From positions 5,917-69,916 of the forward strand of contig CAIMSU010000077.1 of the NCBI GenBank assembly GCA_903844155.1: DNA of 64,000 nt, in the 5' to 3' direction. Source of the stretch: an uncultured Pseudomonadota bacterium (GTDB lineage: Bacteria; Myxococcota_A; UBA796; SXON01). The position numbers and the translations under genes are program-made. Shown here piece after piece: positions 8,318-55,562 of this stretch; the stretch's first letter is position 1, and every line of letters starts with the position of its first letter. The notes beneath the pieces are model-generated. The model worked only from the letters and a program-made list of their open reading frames with translations, did not search any database and was not told where the DNA came from.

Positions 8318-8925
8318 TGACCGTGCCGACGAGTGCCTCGCCCGTCCCCTGGTACCGTCGAAAGGCGTTCTGGAACCTGCCGAACGCGATCACCGTGTTT
8401 CGCGTGGCGATGGTGCCGGTCGTCGGGTTTGCGCTGTGGACGCGGCCGACGTTCGGCTGGGCGGTGGCTTCCTGCGTGCTCTTTGTCGTCGCGATGCTCT
8501 CGGACATCCTCGATGGCTACCTGGCGCGGCTCTGGGACGTCCAGAGCGTCGCTGGCGCCTTCCTCGACCCGCTGGCTGACAAGTTGATGATGCTGACGGC
8601 GCTGGTGATGATGATCCCGCTCGGCTGGGTCCCGGCTTGGGCGGTTGTGCTGATGGAATCCCGCGAGCTGGCCATCTCCGGCCTGCGCATGGTCGCGATG
8701 AGCGAGGGCATGGTGATCGCGGCGGGCAGCCTCGGGAAGTTCAAGACCTCCTACCAGTCCACCGCCGTCGGCTTCCTGCTCTGGCACTACCCGAGCATCG
8801 GGATCGACGCCTACTCCGTCGGCATCCTGCTGTTCTACGTCAGCCTCTTCTTCTCGCTCGCGAGCGCTATCGAGTATTTCTGGGGGTTCTACCAGTACGG
8901 CAAGCGGGCGCGCACGACCGCATGA
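8317..8925 (+). CDS. pgsA: CDP-diacylglycerol--glycerol-3-phosphate 3-phosphatidyltransferase (CDP-alcohol phosphatidyltransferase)
   Basis: DILDGYLARLWDVQSVAGAFLDPLADK matches DGx2ARx8Gx3Dx3D. The ATG shares one nucleotide (8317) with the SLT stop (TGATG). Confidence 0.9.
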   Translation: MTVPTSASPVPWYRRKAFWNLPNAITVFRVAMVPVVGFALWTRPTFGWAVASCVLFVVAMLSDILDGYLARLWDVQSVAGAFLDPLADKLMMLTALVMMIPLGWVPAWAVVLMESRELAISGLRMVAMSEGMVIAAGSLGKFKTSYQSTAVGFLLWHYPSIGIDAYSVGILLFYVSLFFSLASAIEYFWGFYQYGKRARTTA

Positions 8926-11005: not shown

Positions 11006-11823
11006 GCCGGGACGCCGGGCTCGGGCGGGCGCTGGAGGGGGCGTTGGTGGGGCTGGACGCGCACGTGCATCGCGATCCCATCCGGTTCCCAGGGCGGTAC
11101 AAGGCGCCGGGGGACGTCGAGATCGCCGCTGTGTACGCTGCACAGTTGGCGTTCGGACGCGTCGAACTGTTCGGACCGGTGCTGGCGCGGCTGTTCGCGG
11201 AGATGGACGCGGTCGGCGGGCCTGCAAGCTGGGTCGCAGAGGGCGGTCCGGACACCGGCGACCCGCTCGTCTACCGGTGGTTCGGGCGGGCCGACTTGCT
11301 CGCCCTCGCCGGTGCGCTCGCGCGTCTACAGGCCGCTGAGGGCCTCGCTGCCGCGTTCTCCGGGCCGACGGGGGAGGCGGCGATCGAGGTAGGCGTGACC
11401 CGCCTGCGCGCGCTCGTCGACGATCGGTCAGCCCGCGGGCGGTTCTTCGACACGTGGTTCGCGCGCCCGTCGTCGGGCTCGGCCTGCAAGCGCTGGTGCA
11501 TGTTCCTGCGCTGGATGGTCCGGCCCGGCGCGCCAGACCTGGGCATCTGGACCCACCTCTCCCCGGCGACCCTCGTGATGCCCGTCGACACCCACGTCCT
11601 CCGGATCGCCCAGCTCACCGGCCTGACCGACCGGCGCACCGCCGACTGGAAGACGGCCCTGCAGATCACCAGCCGACTTCGGGATTATTCGGCCGACGAC
11701 CCCATCCGCTACGACTTCGCCCTCGCGCACCTCGGGATCTCCTCGGGATGCACCGGGACGGCGTCGCCGGCGTGCGACGGGTGCGCGATGCGCAGTGTAT
11801 GTAGGGTCCATGTTCCCGGTTGA
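11002..11823 (+). CDS. TIGR02757/DUF2400 family protein (HhH-like fold, function unknown)
   Basis: DPIRFPGRY, AAQLAFGRV, FLRWMVRP..DLGIW, PVDTHVLRIAQLTGL and DPIRYDFALAHLG motifs. The ATG overlaps the upstream stop (ATGA). Confidence 0.75.
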   Translation: MSRDAGLGRALEGALVGLDAHVHRDPIRFPGRYKAPGDVEIAAVYAAQLAFGRVELFGPVLARLFAEMDAVGGPASWVAEGGPDTGDPLVYRWFGRADLLALAGALARLQAAEGLAAAFSGPTGEAAIEVGVTRLRALVDDRSARGRFFDTWFARPSSGSACKRWCMFLRWMVRPGAPDLGIWTHLSPATLVMPVDTHVLRIAQLTGLTDRRTADWKTALQITSRLRDYSADDPIRYDFALAHLGISSGCTGTASPACDGCAMRSVCRVHVPG

Positions 11824-12068
11824 TCGCCTTCCTCTTCGATGCGCCCTTGCGCTGATCCTCCCGCTGCTGGGCGGGTGCTGCCTGGATTTTGCCCTGGAGT
11901 GTCCGGAAACGCTGACGATCACCGGGGTCCCGCCCGGTGACGTCGCCCTCACCGTCAGGTTGTTCGACGGTGCGGAGCCCGCGACCTGCACCCTGCCTGC
12001 CGCGGCCGAAACCGCTGCGGATACGGCCCCGGACAGCGGCCCTGCGACAACTGCGTGCAACATGGGCA

Positions 12069-12260
12069 GCCAACACCGGCCCCTTCGGTCCGGTGATGGC
12101 TGTTTATTCTCGTCGCGCCTTGGCTTTCGACCAACTGCGCGTGTTCGTGACCTCCCTTGACGAGTCCACACCTGCGCCGCTGCGGGCGAGCGCGACCGCT
12201 GCTGACCGCGTCGAAGGCACGCTTCGTGCGGGGCACGAAGTCGCGCCTTCTCCTTGGCCA
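12069..12260 (+). mobile_element. Hairpin-ended repeat element, copy A (192 nt); candidate MITE/PATE-like non-autonomous element
   Basis: Over its 187-nt core, aligns end to end, with no net length difference, with copy C at 33838-34024. The 3' 80 nt are nearly identical; the centre is about 60% identical. Left hairpin 12074-12095, right hairpin 12213-12250. Preceded by GGCA and ends in TTGGCCA. Confidence 0.85.
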
Positions 12261-12455
12261 GCCAACACCGGCCCCTTCGGTCCGGTGATGGCTGTTTCTT
12301 CTGGGTCGGGCCTGCCAAACTCGGTTTTCGGGTTCGTTCGTGACATTCTTGACCCGTCAAGCTTCTGGCGTCCACGAGGCAGGCCCTCCCGTGGCCAACC
12401 CGGTTAGAAGGCACGGAACTTGCGGTCGCAAGCTCCGCGCCTTCTGGGTTGGCCA
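12261..12455 (+). mobile_element. Hairpin-ended repeat element, copy B (195 nt, divergent), head-to-tail with copy A
   Basis: Starts with the same 39 nt as copy A (GCCAACACCGGCCCCTTCGGTCCGGTGATGGCTGTTT) and ends in GCGCCTTCTGGGTTGGCCA. Its right hairpin (12407-12444) has a different inner stem that still pairs. Confidence 0.75.
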
Positions 12456-12740
12456 CCATCACCTTGTCGGACGGCGTCGTGACCTATTCGCTCCTGAACG
12501 GCGACTACCCGCCATCCTCCGGGCATGTGTGGCTCAGGGTCGACGGCGACACGGTCCTCGACCAGGACTTCGCCCCGACCCACGGGCCGCCCGGACACGT
12601 CTACGGCGCGTTCTGCCCCGCCAGCTGCACCTCCAGCGACGCGACCCTCGCGGTACCGACGCCCTGACGCTCGGACTCCGACCCGCACGCGCTGGCCGGT
12701 TCAGCGATTTCAATTAGAAGTGAAATCCCGGAGGCTCCCG

Positions 12741-20532: not shown

Positions 20533-21042
20533 ATGTTGCTCCTCCTCCTCGCCTGCCTCCCCGTTGCCGTAAAAGGCGACGCCCCAAGCCCCGACTCCTC
20601 CTCCGACACCGCCTCGGACACGTCGGCCGACACCGACACGGACACGGATTCGGACACCGATTCCGACACGGACTCCGATACGGACACCGACACCGACTCG
20701 GACACCGACACAGACTCGGGCACCGCGGCCACGTTGAAGGTGGGCGTGTACGGCGAGACCGGGATGTACGAGCTCACGACGAACACCGACGGCTCCGCGC
20801 ACTTCGACTCCGCCTGCGCCTACGCGGATATCGCATCGACGCCGATCGCCAGCGGGGCGCTCGATTGGACGCTGCAGTGGTACTCCACTGCCGGGGCCAG
20901 CAGTGGCACGCCCACTCACGTCGTCCTGAACGGCACGCTCGCGGGCGACGTCATCACCGGGAACCTGGTCTTCGACGACGGGACGACGAACCCGGTCGTC
21001 CTCACCTACGGTGTCGTCTACAGCGGACCGGTCTGCCGGTAG
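20533..21042 (+). CDS. Secreted/lipoprotein with a (Asp-Thr/Ser)n spacer
   Basis: Signal MLLLLLACLPVAV, a 30-codon DT/DS repeat, then a beta-rich domain of about 110 aa. ATG 20533 chosen within ORF 20458-21042. Confidence 0.7.
   Translation: MLLLLLACLPVAVKGDAPSPDSSSDTASDTSADTDTDTDSDTDSDTDSDTDTDTDSDTDTDSGTAATLKVGVYGETGMYELTTNTDGSAHFDSACAYADIASTPIASGALDWTLQWYSTAGASSGTPTHVVLNGTLAGDVITGNLVFDDGTTNPVVLTYGVVYSGPVCR
20629..20718 (+). repeat. Hexanucleotide tandem repeat (GAC-WCN)15 encoding DTDTDTDSDTDS...
   Basis: Read directly from the sequence: gacaccgacacggacacggattcggacaccgattccgac... Confidence 0.9.
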
Positions 21043-32550: not shown

Positions 32551-35160
32551 CTACCCGTCGGCCCAGCTCCGAAGCGCGTCCAGGAACCGGGCACCGTAGC
32601 GAGCGAACCGCTTCTCGCCCATCCCGTGGATCGCCATCATCGAGCTGCGGGTCACCGGGCGCTTCTCGACCATGTCCGCGAGCGTGCGGTCCGCCGCGAC
32701 GACGTAGGCGGGCACGTCGTCCGCGCGCGCGAGCTCGGCACGCACCTCGCGGAGCTGGGCGAGGAGGTCGCGGCGGACCCCGACAGGCGCCCGACCAACG
32801 GCGGCGGAGCGCGTCGCCTTCTGCCCGAGCGGGAAATTCATGCGGAAGCCGGACGCGCGCTGGTGCATCACCTGCTCCCCGAGGTCGGTCAGTTGAACCA
32901 CGGCAAAGGTCCGCTCAACGCCCTTGACCGGCCGCGTGACGACCGACCGCCTGGTTGCCCCGGCGCGCTCAAGCTCGCCGAGCACGCTCTCGACCTCCGC
33001 CCGCGTGTACTGGGAGAGGATTCCGTAGGTGCTCAGCCGTTCAAAGCCGAACGCCAGAACGGCAGGCTCGGTGCTGCCGACGAGCACGCGCGCCACCATG
33101 TCTGGCTTGAACCCCTCGCCCGCTCCCCTGTCCGCGCCGCTCCGGGCCGCCATCCGCCCGATGCAGGCCAGCACCTTGCGCACGACCGTCTCCTCCTCCG
33201 GCGAGAGCGGCTGTGGTCCGACGGCGATCTTCCTGCCTTCGCGGCACCCGTCACAATCGCCACAGCGCTCCCAGGGCGGGCTGTCCCCGAAGTATTCCAG
33301 AAGGTAGCGGCGGCGGCAGCCAGCAGCGGCATAATCCACCATCTTCTGGAGCTTTTGGAGTTCGCGACCACGCCGCTCCTTCATCTTCTGCTCGTCGAAC
33401 GCCAGCACGGCACCGGGTTTGAGCAGCTCGAACCCGCCGACCCGCTCGGGCGCGTTGTACGTGAGGACGCCGCGCTGCTCCAGGCCGCGCAGCGCGACCG
33501 CCACCTGCTCCCGGGTCAGGTCCAGCTCCTCAGCGATCCGGTCCGGCCAGACCGCGACGGCGTCCTCCGCGGTCGTCGCCCCGGCACGCCGTGCGAGCGT
33601 CTTGAGGCATGCCAGAACGCGTCCACGTTGCCCATCGGCGACCTGCGCATCGTCGCGCGGTGATGGCGCGGTGAGCCGGACCTGACCGGCCCGCTCGGCC
33701 GGCGCAACGCGTCGCACGTAGCCCTCGCGCTGCAGCACGTAAATGCAGCTCCCCGCTGCCCTTTCGCCCCCTGCATCGTCAGGAAGGACGGCAGCAAGCT
33801 CCTCCAGCCCGATGAACACGATCGCGGTGGCACCCATCACCGGGCCCTCCGGTCCGGTGACGGCGGTTTCTTCCCCGTCGCGCCCGGTTTTCCGGCTGTG
33901 ACGCGTGTTGGTGGCATCGGTTGACGTGTCCACGCCCGCGCGGGAAACAGCGAGCGCGACGGCTGCTGACCGCGTCGAAGACACGCTTCGTGCGGGGCAC
34001 GACGTCGCGCCTTCTCCTTGGCCACCCGGGATCGCCGTCGTCCGGTCGCCGTTCAGCGCGTTCAGGCGCGCCCAGATGCGCTGCACCCAGTCTGCCGGCG
34101 GATGGGCGAGGTTGATGAAGAACTCCTGGGTCCTTCGGTCGTCCTCGCGAAAGAGCAACACCACGCGGCTCCGCTCTCCATCGCGCCCGGCTCGGCCAAT
34201 CTCCTGATAGTACGCCTCGATTGTCCCCGGCAGATCGTAGTGGACGATGGTCCTGACGCATGCCTTGTCCACACCCATGCCGAACGCGTTGGTCGCCACG
34301 ACGACCGGGGATCGCCCGTCCATGAACGCGTCCTGCACCGCCGTCCGCTCCGCCATCTCCAGGCCTGCGTGGTACATCGCCACGCGATCCCGGCCGATCG
34401 AAGCGCGTAATGCCTCCGTCGCCCGCTCGACGTTCTTGCGGGTTGCCGCGTAGATCAACGTCGAGCCCGTGCTGACGAGCGAGGCCAACACAGCGTCCTT
34501 CTCACGCGGCCCGTTGACCGGCAGCACCTCCAGGCGCAGATTCGCGCGGTCAAAGCCCGTGACGAACCGACGCGCCTGCGGGATCCCGAGCGCGCGCAGG
34601 ATGTCGGTCTGCACGAGCGGTGTGGCGGTCGCGGTGAGCGCGACCGTTCGCGGGTCGCCCAGGGCGTGACGCACCTCGCCGAGCCGCAGGTAGTCCGGCC
34701 GAAAATCATGGCCCCACTGACTCAAGCAGTGCGCCTCGTCCAGCGCGAGCAGCCGTACCTTCGCGGCGCGCAGCCGCTCCACGAAAACCGGCGTGAACCG
34801 CTCAGGCGCGACAAAAACAAGCTCCCAGGCGCCTTCCTGCACCTCCCGGAGCCGAGCCCGACGCTCCTCGACCGGGATCGTGGAGTTGATGAGCGTCGCC
34901 CGCACCCCCCGCCGCACCAGCCCCTCAACCTGGTCCTTCATGAGCGCGATGAGCGGCGACACCACGACCGCCACCCCACCCGCGCCCGCCGTCAGCGCGA
35001 TCGCCGGCAACTGGTAGCAGAGCGACTTCCCCGCACCCGTCGGCATGACCACGAGCGCATCCCCGGACTCGACGATGTGCTCGACGATCTCGGCTTGCCC
35101 AGGCCGAAAGCTCGGAAACCCCAGACGTTGCTTCAGCAGATGTTCGAGCGGGAGCGCCAT
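32551..35160 (-). CDS. recQ: RecQ-family ATP-dependent DNA helicase (long form with Zn-binding, WH and HRDC regions) carrying a 64-codon repeat-element insert
   Basis: FRPGQAEIV, MPTGAGKSLCYQ, DEAHCLSQWGHDFRPDY, GRAGRDG, the Cys cluster CRRRYLLEYFG...CGDCDGC and the C-terminal HRDC (VVAADRTLADMVEKRP...GMGEKRFARYG). Confidence 0.95.
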   Translation of the reverse strand: MALPLEHLLKQRLGFPSFRPGQAEIVEHIVESGDALVVMPTGAGKSLCYQLPAIALTAGAGGVAVVVSPLIALMKDQVEGLVRRGVRATLINSTIPVEERRARLREVQEGAWELVFVAPERFTPVFVERLRAAKVRLLALDEAHCLSQWGHDFRPDYLRLGEVRHALGDPRTVALTATATPLVQTDILRALGIPQARRFVTGFDRANLRLEVLPVNGPREKDAVLASLVSTGSTLIYAATRKNVERATEALRASIGRDRVAMYHAGLEMAERTAVQDAFMDGRSPVVVATNAFGMGVDKACVRTIVHYDLPGTIEAYYQEIGRAGRDGERSRVVLLFREDDRRTQEFFINLAHPPADWVQRIWARLNALNGDRTTAIPGGQGEGATSCPARSVSSTRSAAVALAVSRAGVDTSTDATNTRHSRKTGRDGEETAVTGPEGPVMGATAIVFIGLEELAAVLPDDAGGERAAGSCIYVLQREGYVRRVAPAERAGQVRLTAPSPRDDAQVADGQRGRVLACLKTLARRAGATTAEDAVAVWPDRIAEELDLTREQVAVALRGLEQRGVLTYNAPERVGGFELLKPGAVLAFDEQKMKERRGRELQKLQKMVDYAAAGCRRRYLLEYFGDSPPWERCGDCDGCREGRKIAVGPQPLSPEEETVVRKVLACIGRMAARSGADRGAGEGFKPDMVARVLVGSTEPAVLAFGFERLSTYGILSQYTRAEVESVLGELERAGATRRSVVTRPVKGVERTFAVVQLTDLGEQVMHQRASGFRMNFPLGQKATRSAAVGRAPVGVRRDLLAQLREVRAELARADDVPAYVVAADRTLADMVEKRPVTRSSMMAIHGMGEKRFARYGARFLDALRSWADG
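33833..34024 (+). mobile_element. Hairpin-ended repeat element, copy C (192 nt), inside recQ. Same + strand orientation as copies A/B, so antisense to recQ.
   Basis: CACCGGGCCCTCCGGTCCGGTG...GCTGCTGACCGCGTCGAAGACACGCTTCGTGCGGGGCACGACGTCGCGCCTTCTCCTTGGCCA aligns with 12074-12260. Preceded by TGGCA. Translated in recQ as GQGEGATSCPARSVSSTRSAAVALA...EETAVTGPEGPVM. Confidence 0.85.
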
Positions 35161-53730: not shown

Positions 53731-55562
53731 ACGCCGACTCCGAGCGGGGAGAGCGTGAGTGAGGTGTGCAGGGGCCCGAGCACGACGCCCGTGCCCTCAA
53801 GCGCCACACCGCCCGCCAGCAGGGCGATCGTGGCCCATTTGCCGGTGTTGAAGCGTCCGGTGATCGCCTGCGCGTCCGCCGGGGTCACCGCGCTCGGGTC
53901 TGCGATCGCCGCCTGACCGTCGGCCCACGCGGGGTTCACGACGAGAAAGTTCACGACCGCGCCGCCAGCGAGCACCGCGCCGCCCGCGCCCATCAGCGCA
54001 TAGCCGACCGTGCCACCGCGATGCTCGTCACCCCGCGTGGCCTTGCCAACGACCTTGTTCGCCGCCTTGTCGGCCGCGGCCTGCGCGTCCGCGCGGGCCT
54101 TCGCATCGGCCGCCGCCTTGTCCGCGGCAGCCTTGTCCGCGGGGGTGCGCGCGTCGGCCTTCGCCTTGGCGTCAGCCGCGGCCTTGTCCGCCGCCGCCTG
54201 CGCCGCGGCTTTGTCCGCCGCGGCTTGAGCGGCAGCCTTGGCCTTCGCGTCCGCATCAGCCTTCGTCTTCGCGTCCGCATCAGCCTTCGTCTTCGCGTCG
54301 GCAGCGGCTTTGTCGGCCAGGGCCTTCGCGTCAGCGTCGGCCTTCGTCTTCGCATCGGCAGCGGCTTTGTCGGCCAGGGCCTTCGCGTCAGCGTCGGCCT
54401 TCGTCTTCGCGTCAGCAGCGGCTTTGTCGGCCAGGGCCTTCGCGTCAGCGTCGGCCTTCGTCTTCGCGTCAGCCGCGGCTTTGTCGGCCAGGGCCTTCGC
54501 GTCAGCTTTGGTCTTCGCATCGGCAGCGGCTTTGTCGGCCAGGGCCTTCGCGTCCGCGTCCGCCTTCGTCTTCGCGTCGGCGGCGGCTTTGTCGGCGAGG
54601 GCCTTCGCATCGGCGTCGGCCTTCGTCTTCGCGTCGGCCGCGGCTTTGTCGGCGAGCGCCTTCGCATCGGCGTCGGCCTTCGTCTTCGCGTCGGCAGCGG
54701 CCTTTGCATCGGCGTCCGCCTTCGCCTTCGCGTCAGCGGCGGCCTTGTCCGCGAGGGCCTTGGCATCCGCGGCAGCCTTCGCCTTCGCGTCCGCGGCGGC
54801 TTTGTCCGCGGCGACCTTCGCGTCCGCATCGGCCTTCGCCTTCGCGTCAGCGGCTGCCTTCGCGTCGGCAGCGGCCTTGGCCTTGGCGGCCTTGTCGGCA
54901 GCGGCGGTGTCCACGACGGCCGCGCTGTCCGGCTTCTTCGGCGATTTCGGAGCCTTCATCCCCGGGTAGACGCCGCCGGTGCAGAGCACCGTGTAGTCCG
55001 GAGGTGCGGTTCCGAAGCTGTACCAGGTCCCGACGATGCTCCCGTCTCCGCACCGAAGCTGGACGAAGTGCTCACCGACGTGCACCGTGTCGCCCTGCTC
55101 CTTCTTCGCCCCGTCGATGAACAGCACCGCGTCGCCGGTGTCGTCGGGGAGGTTCAGGGGCGCCTCGGTGTAGCCCTTCACCTCGTTGGCAACGGCGTAA
55201 AAGGCGTCCTGGCCATCGGTGTCCGGCAACACGGAGGCGTCCGGCTCGTACATCGGGTTCAAGACGGCCGCCGCTCGCCAGGCGTCCAGCGCCTTCTTGT
55301 TGCGGTCGCCGCCGTACCACTCGGCGACGCCCCGGTAGAACAGCGACCGGGACAGGTCCGCGGACAGGATGAGCTTGGCGCTTGACGGAGCCGCGGCCTT
55401 CGCGTCGTCGAGGACCTTCTCGGCACCTCGGTAATCCTTCGCGATCAACTTGGCTTTCGCGGCATCCACGAGGGCGACGAACGCAGCGTCATCCGCTCGC
55501 GCCTGCGGTGCCCCGAGCGCCAGGAGCAGCGCCATCAACCCCATTGCCCCAAGACCCCTCAT
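53715..55562 (-). CDS. Secreted/membrane-anchored protein: TPR-like plus PEGA-like N-domains, a long Ala/Lys/Asp coiled-coil repeat region and C-terminal hydrophobic segments
   Basis: Signal MRGLGAMGLMALLLALGAPQARA; 19-aa repeats KADADAKALADKAAADAKT; C-terminal Gly/Ala-rich TM-like helices. The ATG overlaps the upstream kinase stop (ATGA). Confidence 0.75.
   Translation of the reverse strand: MRGLGAMGLMALLLALGAPQARADDAAFVALVDAAKAKLIAKDYRGAEKVLDDAKAAAPSSAKLILSADLSRSLFYRGVAEWYGGDRNKKALDAWRAAAVLNPMYEPDASVLPDTDGQDAFYAVANEVKGYTEAPLNLPDDTGDAVLFIDGAKKEQGDTVHVGEHFVQLRCGDGSIVGTWYSFGTAPPDYTVLCTGGVYPGMKAPKSPKKPDSAAVVDTAAADKAAKAKAAADAKAAADAKAKADADAKVAADKAAADAKAKAAADAKALADKAAADAKAKADADAKAAADAKTKADADAKALADKAAADAKTKADADAKALADKAAADAKTKADADAKALADKAAADAKTKADAKALADKAAADAKTKADADAKALADKAAADAKTKADADAKALADKAAADAKTKADADAKALADKAAADAKTKADADAKTKADADAKAKAAAQAAADKAAAQAAADKAAADAKAKADARTPADKAAADKAAADAKARADAQAAADKAANKVVGKATRGDEHRGGTVGYALMGAGGAVLAGGAVVNFLVVNPAWADGQAAIADPSAVTPADAQAITGRFNTGKWATIALLAGGVALEGTGVVLGPLHTSLTLSPLGVGVHGVW
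54301..54693. repeat. Tandem repeat with a 57-nt period, seven units (one shortened to 51 nt), within a broader Ala/Lys/Asp low-complexity tract of about 54010-54930
   Basis: Unit GCAGCGGCTTTGTCGGCCAGGGCCTTCGCGTCAGCGTCGGCCTTCGTCTTCGCATCG recurs at 54301, 54358, 54415, 54472, 54523, 54580 and 54637. Confidence 0.9.

What the first reader, a model, noticed from the sequence alone, without database searches (positions are those of the whole stretch)
33833..34024. A 192-nt hairpin-ended repeat sits inside recQ as an in-frame, stop-free 64-codon insert
The recQ ORF (32551-35160, minus) contains a segment whose DNA is a copy of a repeat found twice at 12069-12455. It lies between the helicase core (after ...RAGRDG...FINLAHPPADWVQRIWARLNAL) and the downstream WH/Zn/HRDC regions. 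It is translated as GQGEGATSCPARSVSSTRSAAVALAVSRAGVDTSTDATNTRHSRKTGRDGEETAVTGPEGPVM, a low-complexity sequence unlike RecQ. The insert length of 192 nt is exactly 64 codons, so the helicase frame is preserved. Similar 9-mers flank the site (GATCGCGGT at 33820-33828 and GATCGCCGT at 34030-34038). A repeat or mobile element tolerated, or exapted, inside an essential-type repair helicase is unusual.
Basis: partly seen in the sequence, partly recalled or inferred. Interest (0 to 1): 0.7.

Follow-up and report, generated by a model that had tools for sequence, protein, structure and literature searches.

The report
Small repeat inserted in-frame in recQ
A roughly 200-base copy of a small hairpin-ended repeat from an uncultured Myxococcota-like bacterium sits inside the recQ helicase gene, in frame and without stops, and is probably tolerated as a floppy surface loop; this kind of event is already known from Rickettsia and other bacteria.

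Summary
Window 33829-34029 lies inside an intact 869-aa recQ gene (32551-35160, minus strand). It is a copy of a ~192-nt-period repeat that occurs twice in tandem at 12065-12459 (nhmmer E 1e-44 to 1e-60).

All 57 aligned RecQ orthologues, including syntenic relatives at 76-79% identity, have 5 or 12 residues where this protein has 79. The insert has flat GC across codon positions, against GC3 of 0.85 in the flanks. AlphaFold2 models it as a disordered loop, while the rest of the protein folds confidently. So it is an insertion, not ancestral coding sequence.

New findings:
- The tandem pair at 12 kb interrupts a real lipoprotein gene. It adds 387 nt, keeps the frame, but carries four stops.
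- A related contig has 1.6 copies (300 nt, in frame, open) inside a 692-aa membrane protein, plus one intergenic copy.
- Copies share two strong terminal hairpins. One copy has an unrelated middle.
- The recQ copy is the most decayed.
- There are no terminal inverted repeats, and the flanking 9-mers are not statistically significant.
- There is no Rfam match and no hit in any genome, metagenome, viral, plasmid or phage collection searched.

Verdict: a previously undescribed repeat family showing a known phenomenon, in-frame selfish DNA like the Rickettsia palindromic elements. How it moves is unknown. Interest is moderate.

The parts
32551..35160 (-). Intact recQ gene (869 aa) that hosts the insert
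   Evidence: ORF. Pfam DEAD, Helicase_C, RecQ_Zn_bind, RQC and HRDC. PDB RecQ core matches residues 7-337. GC3 is 0.86 and 0.85 in the two flanks. All invariant helicase and zinc-binding columns are kept.
33829..34029 (+). Repeat copy R: 201 nt, family orientation +, so antisense to recQ. It is read through as residues ~378-444 (PGGQGEG...GPVMGA).
   Evidence: nhmmer E 7.9e-52. It is 81% identical to copy A and 82% to the consensus of the other copies, making it the most diverged A-type copy. GC by codon position is flat at 0.67/0.71/0.73 for 33829-34038, which is this copy plus the 9-mer at 34030-34038. It is absent from 57 orthologues. pLDDT is below 50 and no secondary structure is predicted.
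33834..33863 (+). 5' terminal hairpin (HP1) of copy R, with the outer stem eroded
   Evidence: -10.3 kcal/mol (z -2.1), against -14.9 to -18.6 (z -5.9 to -7.2) in copies A, B and a7. The broken pairs are listed.
33977..34014 (+). 3' terminal hairpin (HP3) of copy R, largely eroded
   Evidence: -7.7 kcal/mol (z -0.3), against -14.7 to -19.1 in the other copies.
33820..33828 (.). Left flanking 9-mer GATCGCGGT, a possible target-site duplication. On the recQ strand it encodes T-A-I.
   Evidence: Sequence; codon view. It matches the right 9-mer at 8 of 9 positions, but this is not significant (about 14% of random pairs).
34030..34038 (.). Right flanking 9-mer GATCGCCGT, a possible target-site duplication
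12065..12263 (+). Repeat copy A. It has a strong HP1 at 12067-12102, a T-rich tail TTTATTCT, and HP3 at 12213-12250.
   Evidence: nhmmer E 6.8e-60; hairpins; terminator-like hit.
12257..12459 (+). Repeat copy B, head-to-tail with A and sharing the junction GGCCAGCC. Its ends are conserved and its middle is unrelated. HP1 is at 12259-12294 and HP3 at 12406-12445.
   Evidence: nhmmer E 1.8e-44. Identity to the consensus is 93% in the first 45 columns, 43% in the middle and 56% at the 3' end. HP3 is rebuilt from a different palindrome at -14.7 kcal/mol.
11795..12067 (+). N-terminal part of a lipoprotein gene (signal peptide and LLGGC lipobox) that is interrupted by copies A and B
   Evidence: Translation. 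GC3 is 0.76. The homologue P0122 aligns across the junction.
12455..12667 (+). C-terminal part of the same lipoprotein gene. It is in the same frame as the N-terminal part, 387 nt downstream, with 4 in-frame stops in between.
   Evidence: GC3 is 0.92. With A and B removed, the sequence aligns without a break to the 148-aa homologue P0122: ACNMGS|TITLSDG against ACSYGS-LTGSSG.

Best explanation
The segment is an old, partly decayed copy of a lineage-restricted, non-autonomous dispersed repeat. The unit has a ~192-nt period. Each end carries a strong ~16-bp hairpin, and the 5' hairpin is followed by a T-rich, terminator-like tail.

Shown:
- The copy sits in a short loop of RecQ that already varies in length. 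The loop lies between the last helix after the helicase core (residues 356-376) and a clade-specific winged-helix region.
- It is antisense to the element's terminator-like end.
- It adds a multiple of three bases and has no stop in the recQ frame.

Inferred:
- Transcription and translation run straight through it, producing a disordered surface loop of about 70 aa.
- This loop leaves the helicase, zinc-binding, RQC and HRDC modules intact.
- It is therefore a tolerated passenger rather than a functional module.

Weakly inferred:
- The family spreads because some trans-acting enzyme recognises the conserved hairpin ends. Copy B keeps the ends while its interior is unrelated, which fits this.
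- Insertions fall into genes as well as between them. Only in-frame, stop-free insertions survive in genes that are still needed.
- The enzyme and the chemistry of insertion remain unknown.
For: Insertion rather than ancestral sequence:
- Orthologues have 5 or 12 aa where this protein has 79.
- Syntenic relatives L002, L003 and L005 show the empty site at the DNA level.
- GC is flat across codon positions in the insert, against GC3 of 0.85-0.86 in the flanks.

Repeat family:
- There are three copies in the window.
- L007 and L008 carry one intergenic copy and 1.6 copies inside the 692-aa protein P0128. That insert is 300 nt, in frame, open, and flat in GC against flanking GC3 of 0.9.
- L008 comes from the same sample as L010. 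L010 is 99.8% identical to the window.

Second gene hit in the window:
- Copies A and B split a lipoprotein gene whose halves rejoin to match the homologue P0122.

Ends matter:
- HP1 and HP3 fold strongly, with z of -4.5 to -7.2.
- One HP1 pair covaries: UA in 3 copies, AU in 1, AA in 2.
- Copy B has 93% identical 5' ends, an unrelated middle, and an HP3 rebuilt from a different palindrome.

Tolerance:
- The AlphaFold2 model has mean pLDDT 85.9. Residues 376-442 are below 50 with no secondary structure.
- The loop is indel-tolerant: three orthologues carry a 7-aa extension there.
- All conserved helicase and zinc-binding residues are kept.

Stable allele:
- The exact product is on at least 10 contigs.

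Old copy:
- It has the lowest identity to the consensus among A-type copies, and both hairpins are eroded.
Against: - No terminal inverted repeats were found. The best match is 5-6 nt, at the level of shuffled controls.
- The flanking direct repeats are not significant, so transposition itself is not demonstrated.
- Only about 6 copies at 4-5 sites are known.
- No transposase or full-length parent element was seen.
- No copy was found in 65 kb from close relatives. None was found in 185,579 species genomes, JGI metagenomes, IMG/VR, plasmids or phages. Family size and activity are therefore unknown.
- There are no expression or protein data, so read-through translation and retained RecQ activity are inferred, not shown.
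- Whether L007/L008 belong to the same species as the window is not proven.
- The protein-search index did not return the window's own RecQ. The lack of any hit in the search with the insert peptide alone is therefore weak evidence.
Confidence: 0.8

Rival explanations
1. The extra ~70 aa have been exapted. The insert now serves RecQ as a flexible linker or interaction segment and is kept by selection on its peptide.
For: The allele is fixed on at least 10 contigs. The copy is old and still open. Its DNA hairpins are eroded, which could reflect selection for smoother expression.
Against: GC across codon positions is flat, so there is no codon adaptation. The peptide is low-complexity and predicted to be disordered. 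The search of 5.8 billion protein clusters with this peptide alone returned nothing, although that search has limited power. No relative has the insert.
Confidence: 0.08
2. The insertion has crippled RecQ. The gene is an early pseudogene, or a hypomorph in a non-essential pathway, and its open frame simply has not yet decayed.
For: From general knowledge, RecQ is dispensable in most bacteria. The same family has plainly inactivated a lipoprotein gene nearby with 4 in-frame stops.
Against: The 2.6-kb ORF is intact with strong GC3 on both sides. Every invariant catalytic and zinc-binding residue is kept. The copy is the most diverged of its subfamily, which suggests a long residence during which an unselected ORF would be expected to break. 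The insert lies in a loop that varies in length among orthologues and is modelled outside the folded domains.
Confidence: 0.08
3. The element is removed after transcription or translation, as a small intron, ribozyme-bounded element or intein-like segment, so the mature RecQ lacks it.
For: The sense-oriented pair in the lipoprotein gene has a length that is a multiple of three, and its exact removal restores a homologous protein. The element is highly structured.
Against: There is no Rfam family even at E of 10 or below. In recQ the element is antisense relative to the other copies, so a single RNA-level mechanism cannot serve both. In recQ and P0128 the frames are open, as expected if they are translated. 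The peptide shows no intein-like features and is low-complexity. Keeping the frame in the lipoprotein gene has a one-in-three chance of arising at random.
Confidence: 0.03
4. The segment is ancestral RecQ coding sequence that relatives lost, or it is an assembly chimera created by a repeat.
For: Other assemblies of this species do break inside copies A and B, which shows the repeat troubles assemblers.
Against: All 57 orthologues lack it. Its GC profile is of non-coding type. The same DNA occurs in unrelated genes and in intergenic DNA. The identical recQ sequence is found in independent assemblies and on at least 10 contigs. The insert is in frame, which a random chimera would achieve only one time in three.
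Confidence: 0.02

Closest known systems
Rickettsia palindromic elements (RPEs; Ogata et al. 2000, as summarised in PMC10969869)
   Same: Both are short, hairpin-forming, non-autonomous repeats found inside unrelated protein-coding genes, in frame and without stops. Both add a peptide at positions compatible with the host protein's fold. Some copies are intergenic. Neither has a known transposase.
   Different: There is no sequence relationship, and this element is from a different phylum. It is GC-rich and apparently from a free-living lineage with a large genome, not a reduced intracellular one. It is longer (~192-200 nt against ~100-150 bp). It occurs in both orientations and in different frames. 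One insertion does carry stops and disrupts its gene, so frame compatibility here looks like survivorship rather than a built-in property.
Bacterial MITEs (for example Correia, ERIC, Nezha, QMITE1 and the Anabaena MITEs)
   Same: Both are small, lack an ORF of their own and occur in several diverged copies. In both, the ends are conserved and the interior varies. Occasional in-frame intragenic copies are known for both (PMC10969869).
   Different: The defining terminal inverted repeats are absent. A target-site duplication is not established. No parent insertion sequence was found.
IS200/IS605-derived palindrome-associated elements (PATEs) and REP/REPIN elements moved by Y1 transposases
   Same: Both have hairpins at or near each end and lack terminal inverted repeats. 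All copies found so far face the same way within each contig. Head-to-tail arrays occur.
   Different: No conserved 4-5-nt target is seen 5' of the left end in four sites. HP1 starts at the very first bases of the element rather than further in. REPs are much shorter and lie outside genes. No Y1 transposase was seen in about 200 kb of sequence.
SPRITE and other terminator-like dispersed repeats
   Same: The 5' hairpin followed by TTTATTCT or TTTCTTCT scores as an intrinsic-terminator-like site in copies A and B.
   Different: This element is much longer and has a second, unrelated terminal hairpin. It lies inside genes. Terminator activity has not been tested.

Membership tests
In-frame intragenic palindromic repeats (RPE-like, defined by behaviour) | Short repeat present at several unrelated loci in the genome or lineage | tested here: met
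   Six to seven copies at four or five sites in about 100 kb from this lineage.
In-frame intragenic palindromic repeats (RPE-like, defined by behaviour) | Inserted in a protein-coding gene, in frame and without stops, and absent from orthologues | tested here: met
   In recQ the segment is absent from 57 orthologues and the frame is open. In P0128 there is a 300-nt open, in-frame insert with non-coding GC, but the orthologue test could not be run for P0128.
In-frame intragenic palindromic repeats (RPE-like, defined by behaviour) | Insert lies at a surface or loop position compatible with the host fold | tested here: met
   In the AlphaFold2 model, residues 376-442 are an unstructured loop between folded domains. 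The loop varies in length among orthologues.
Rickettsia palindromic elements (sequence families RPE-1 to RPE-10) | Sequence homology to an RPE family | not tested
   No RPE reference sequences were available in these tools. The different phylum and 69% GC make homology implausible.
MITE | Terminal inverted repeats | tested here: not met
   The best match between the 5' end and the reverse complement of the 3' end is 5-6 nt in each of five copies. Shuffled controls reached this in 88-323 of 500 trials.
MITE | Target-site duplication of fixed length | tested here: inconclusive
   The recQ site has an 8-of-9 direct repeat, and L007 has GATCTGA/GATCTTGA. Neither exceeds chance. The A+B array has none.
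MITE | Small, no transposase ORF, conserved ends with a variable interior | tested here: met
   The element is about 200 nt. Copy B is 93% identical at its 5' end and 43% in its middle.
MITE | A parent insertion sequence with the same ends | not testable with these tools
   No whole-genome sequence of the source was accessible. There were no partial matches to the ends in about 204 kb.
IS200/IS605-type PATE | Subterminal hairpins at both ends and no terminal inverted repeats | tested here: met
   HP1 and HP3 fold with z of -4.5 to -7.2. There are no terminal inverted repeats.
IS200/IS605-type PATE | Conserved 4-5-nt target immediately 5' of the left end | tested here: not met
   The left flanks are ...CATGG...CGGTG...TCTGA and ...TCGCC.
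Known structured RNAs (group I/II introns, ribozymes, sRNAs in Rfam 15) | Match to a covariance model | tested here: not met
   No hit at gathering thresholds in the window. Only chance-level hits (E of 0.8 or above) at both loci.
RecQ helicase (host gene) | DEAD/Helicase_C core, zinc-binding Cys4, RQC and HRDC domains | tested here: met
   Pfam hits above their cut-offs. PDB RecQ matches. Invariant motif columns are kept.

The most novel reading that the evidence does not exclude
The repeat may be a new class of mobile element whose insertions genes can survive. The evidence that leaves this open is a 64-codon unit with intrinsically open frames, no terminal inverted repeats and no clear target duplication. 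Copies join head-to-tail through a shared CAGCC end, and each end is recognised as a hairpin. Such an element could be moved by an unidentified hairpin-specific or site-specific enzyme. It would then repeatedly seed disordered loops in the proteins of a free-living Myxococcota lineage, a counterpart to the Rickettsia palindromic elements outside the setting of reductive genome evolution.
Probability: 0.15. Interest if true: 0.65.

Novelty: new member of a known kind. Interest (0 to 1): 0.4.

Why it matters
This is a clean, checkable example of selfish DNA becoming part of a protein. Orthologues give an empty site, the donor family can be identified, and the host enzyme's structure and activity are well understood. 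It occurs in a GC-rich, probably free-living bacterium rather than a reduced endosymbiont.

In about 100 kb from this lineage, three genes are hit. Two carry open, in-frame inserts and one is broken. This suggests such events may be commoner in large genomes than annotation reveals.

There is also a practical point. Gene callers annotate the longer RecQ without comment, and assemblies break at these repeats.

The finding does not reveal a new mechanism on present evidence.

Tried and rejected
- **Public-collection scans for the repeat all found nothing.**
  - Two exact-pattern scans of 185,579 species genomes, one for the 5' hairpin and one for the 3' hairpin.
  - One DNA pattern scan and one peptide-pattern scan of JGI metagenomes.
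  - Two scans of IMG/VR.
  - blastn against plasmids and phages, which gave only 45-nt chance hits in haloarchaeal plasmids.
- **Protein search with the recQ-frame peptide alone found nothing**. A concatenated 17-frame query then found P0128.
- **Close relatives' contigs (65 kb) hold no copy**.
- **Walking about 15 kb beyond both window ends found no further copy**. One of these look-ups failed because I guessed the start codon wrongly.
- **Rfam found nothing**, at gathering thresholds or in E-value mode.
- **No terminal inverted repeats were found**, and the target-site duplication was not significant.
- **I looked for an assembly of the lipoprotein locus without the insert, as a sign of polymorphism.** The other assemblies simply end inside the repeats.
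- **Ideas considered and dropped:**
  - A diversity-generating retroelement template/variable repeat pair. I saw no reverse transcriptase nearby, and the differences between copies are not confined to adenines.
  - An intein. The peptide is low-complexity, and the same DNA also occurs where it is not translated.
  - A bridge-RNA-like remnant of an IS110 element. There is no Rfam support and no transposase.
Full report
**Observation.**
The ORF at 32551-35160 on the minus strand encodes an 869-aa RecQ. It has Pfam DEAD, Helicase_C, RecQ_Zn_bind, RQC and HRDC domains. Residues 7-337 match solved RecQ cores, and a weaker second stretch matches residues 595-731.

The stretch 33829-34029 on the plus strand is a copy of a repeat that occurs twice, head-to-tail, at 12065-12263 (copy A) and 12257-12459 (copy B). 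Ungapped identity to A is 85% over 126 nt plus 79% over 48 nt. A profile built from the copies recovers exactly these three places in the 64-kb window, with E of 1e-44 to 1e-60 and nothing else apart from self-palindrome echoes.

The homologous stretch is 201 nt, not 192. The figure of 192 is the family's tandem period.

**It is an insertion.**
- Twelve close orthologues (58-79% overall identity, 748-806 aa) read ...WARLNA-DGQTA-VF.... The window reads ...WARLNALNGDRTTAI[PGGQGEG...GPVMGATAI]VF....
- In a 58-sequence alignment, every other RecQ has 5 residues (54 sequences) or 12 residues (3 sequences) where the window has 79.
- Relatives L002, L003 and L005 show the empty site at the DNA level. 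L002 and L003 also keep the upstream IscA-HscB neighbours, and all three keep the downstream M74 peptidase.
- GC by codon position is 0.72/0.47/0.86 and 0.76/0.50/0.85 in the two recQ flanks. It is 0.67/0.71/0.73 in the insert, the signature of DNA that did not evolve as coding sequence.
- A Logan assembly of a sequencing run is 100% identical over 10.7 kb that include the gene. The exact 869-aa product is on record on at least 10 contigs. The junctions are therefore not the product of one assembler.

**Tolerance.**
An AlphaFold2 model built from 58 sequences has mean pLDDT 85.9 and pTM 0.74. It is confident everywhere except residues 376-442 and 785-790, where pLDDT falls below 50. Residues 376-442 have no secondary structure and lie between helix 356-376 and strand 446-448.

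That position is the junction between the helicase core and a clade-specific region of about 250 aa that precedes the zinc motif. All invariant helicase and Cys4 columns are kept in the window protein. From this I infer that the segment is translated as a disordered surface loop. No expression data exist.

**More of the family.**
*The lipoprotein gene.* Copies A and B are not intergenic. An ORF starting at 11795, with a signal peptide and lipobox, continues in the same frame at 12455. In between lie 387 nt containing four stops. The downstream part has GC3 of 0.92. With A and B removed, the sequence aligns without a break across the junction to a 148-aa homologue, P0122: ACNMGS|TITLSDG against ACSYGS-LTGSSG. 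So a second gene in the window has been hit, and this one is broken.

*The membrane protein P0128.* A query made of the translated frames of the copies found one protein, P0128 (692 aa, no Pfam domain). It carries 1.6 tandem copies in the sense orientation, in frame and open. The insert is exactly 300 nt. Its GC is flat at 0.75/0.72/0.65, against flanking GC3 of 0.90 and 0.89.

*The intergenic copy.* P0128's contigs, L007 and L008, also hold an intergenic copy at 8334-8530. The two contigs are identical from that copy onward and unrelated before it.

*Same species?* L008 comes from the same sample as L010. L010 is 99.8% identical to the window. The organisms may therefore be the same species, but this is not proven.

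*Where no copy was found.* No copy occurs in 65 kb from relatives or in about 15 kb beyond the window ends. The family was also not found in 185,579 species genomes, JGI metagenomes, IMG/VR, plasmids or phages. It matches no Rfam family.

**Anatomy.**
- *5' hairpin (HP1):* each full copy begins with a hairpin of about 16 bp, CAGCCAACACCGG..CCGGTGTTGGCTG. It is followed by TTTATTCT or TTTCTTCT.
- *3' hairpin (HP3):* each full copy ends with a second hairpin of about 16 bp, followed by CCTTCTCCTTGGCCA. In single-strand folds the two hairpins reach -14.7 to -19.1 kcal/mol, with z of -4.5 to -7.2.
- *Terminator-like site:* HP1 with its tail scores as terminator-like in copies A and B.
- *Covariation:* one HP1 pair covaries, with UA in 3 copies, AU in 1 and AA in 2.
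- *Copy B:* it is 93% identical to the others in the first 45 columns but 43% in the middle. Its HP3 inner stem is a different palindrome in the same place. Conserved ends with an exchangeable interior is what one expects when the ends are the sites acting in cis for mobilisation.
- *Array junctions:* in tandem arrays, neighbouring copies overlap by CAGCC.
- *Terminal inverted repeats and flanks:* there are no terminal inverted repeats. The flanking direct repeats do not exceed chance: 8 of 9 at recQ, and GATCTGA/GATCTTGA in L007. No conserved short target precedes the left end.
- *Mechanism:* the insertion mechanism is therefore unresolved.

**The recQ copy is the oldest-looking.**
It is 82% identical to the consensus of the others, against 88-93% for the other A-type copies. 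Both of its hairpins are weakened: HP1 folds at -10.3 kcal/mol and HP3 at -7.7, the latter with z of -0.3.

In the recQ reading direction, the consensus of several copies has a single TAA, from TTTATTC. The recQ copy has TTTCTTC there, as does copy B. One base thus decides whether this frame is open.

In a genome of 69% GC, several frames of each copy are open by chance. Being stop-free is therefore not remarkable in itself.

**Comparison with known elements.**
In behaviour this matches the Rickettsia palindromic elements and the occasional in-frame MITE insertions reviewed in PMC10969869. By sequence and architecture it belongs to none of the families I could test:
- It lacks the terminal inverted repeats that define MITEs.
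- It lacks the target motif expected of IS200/IS605 derivatives.
- It has no Rfam model.

I file it as a new member of a known kind of event. It is a previously undescribed, lineage-restricted, hairpin-ended repeat family, one old copy of which is carried in frame inside recQ.

**Limits.**
- Only six to seven copies are known.
- The whole genome could not be searched.
- The protein index did not return the window's own RecQ, so the lack of hits for the insert peptide is weak evidence.
- The orthologue test for P0128, and any test of expression, activity or current mobility, could not be done here.

Noticed in passing
window 11795-12667: A small lipoprotein gene is split by the tandem repeat pair A+B. 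The pair is 387 nt, preserves the frame and carries 4 stops. Joining the two halves restores a protein that matches a 148-aa homologue.
   Followed up: yes
L007 10001-12079 (insert 11096-11395); the same in L008: A 692-aa membrane protein with no Pfam domain (P0128) carries 1.6 tandem copies of the repeat. The insert is in frame, open, exactly 300 nt, and has non-coding GC. Whether its orthologues lack the insert could not be tested.
   Followed up: partly
L007 and L008, position ~8334: Contigs from two samples are 99.96% identical from the intergenic repeat copy onward and unrelated upstream of it. This is either recombination between copies or an assembly chimera at the repeat.
   Followed up: partly
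window ~12133 and ~12428: Other assemblies of the same organism (the ERZ1426836 contig and a Logan contig from run ERR4194711) end inside copies A and B. The repeat breaks assemblies, which hints at further copies elsewhere in the genome.
   Followed up: partly
window 54060-54917: A long, imperfect tandem repeat with a period of mostly 57 nt (13-28 overlapping copies reported). The near-identical strain in L010 aligns here with several offsets, which suggests the copy number varies between strains.
   Followed up: no
window 20581-20724: A tandem repeat with a 12-nt period (8 overlapping copies reported).
   Followed up: no
window recQ residues ~446-590 (about 33400-33825): This RecQ clade (760-800 aa) carries a region of about 250 aa between the helicase core and the zinc motif, absent from the solved RecQ structures that matched. 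It folds confidently and gives a weak HTH_Crp_2 hit. The repeat landed at its N-terminal boundary.
   Followed up: partly
window 34051-34065: A small direct duplication, GTTCAG-CGC-GTTCAG, which reads LNALN on the recQ strand. It lies just upstream of the insert in the gene, and relatives have a single LNA there.
   Followed up: no
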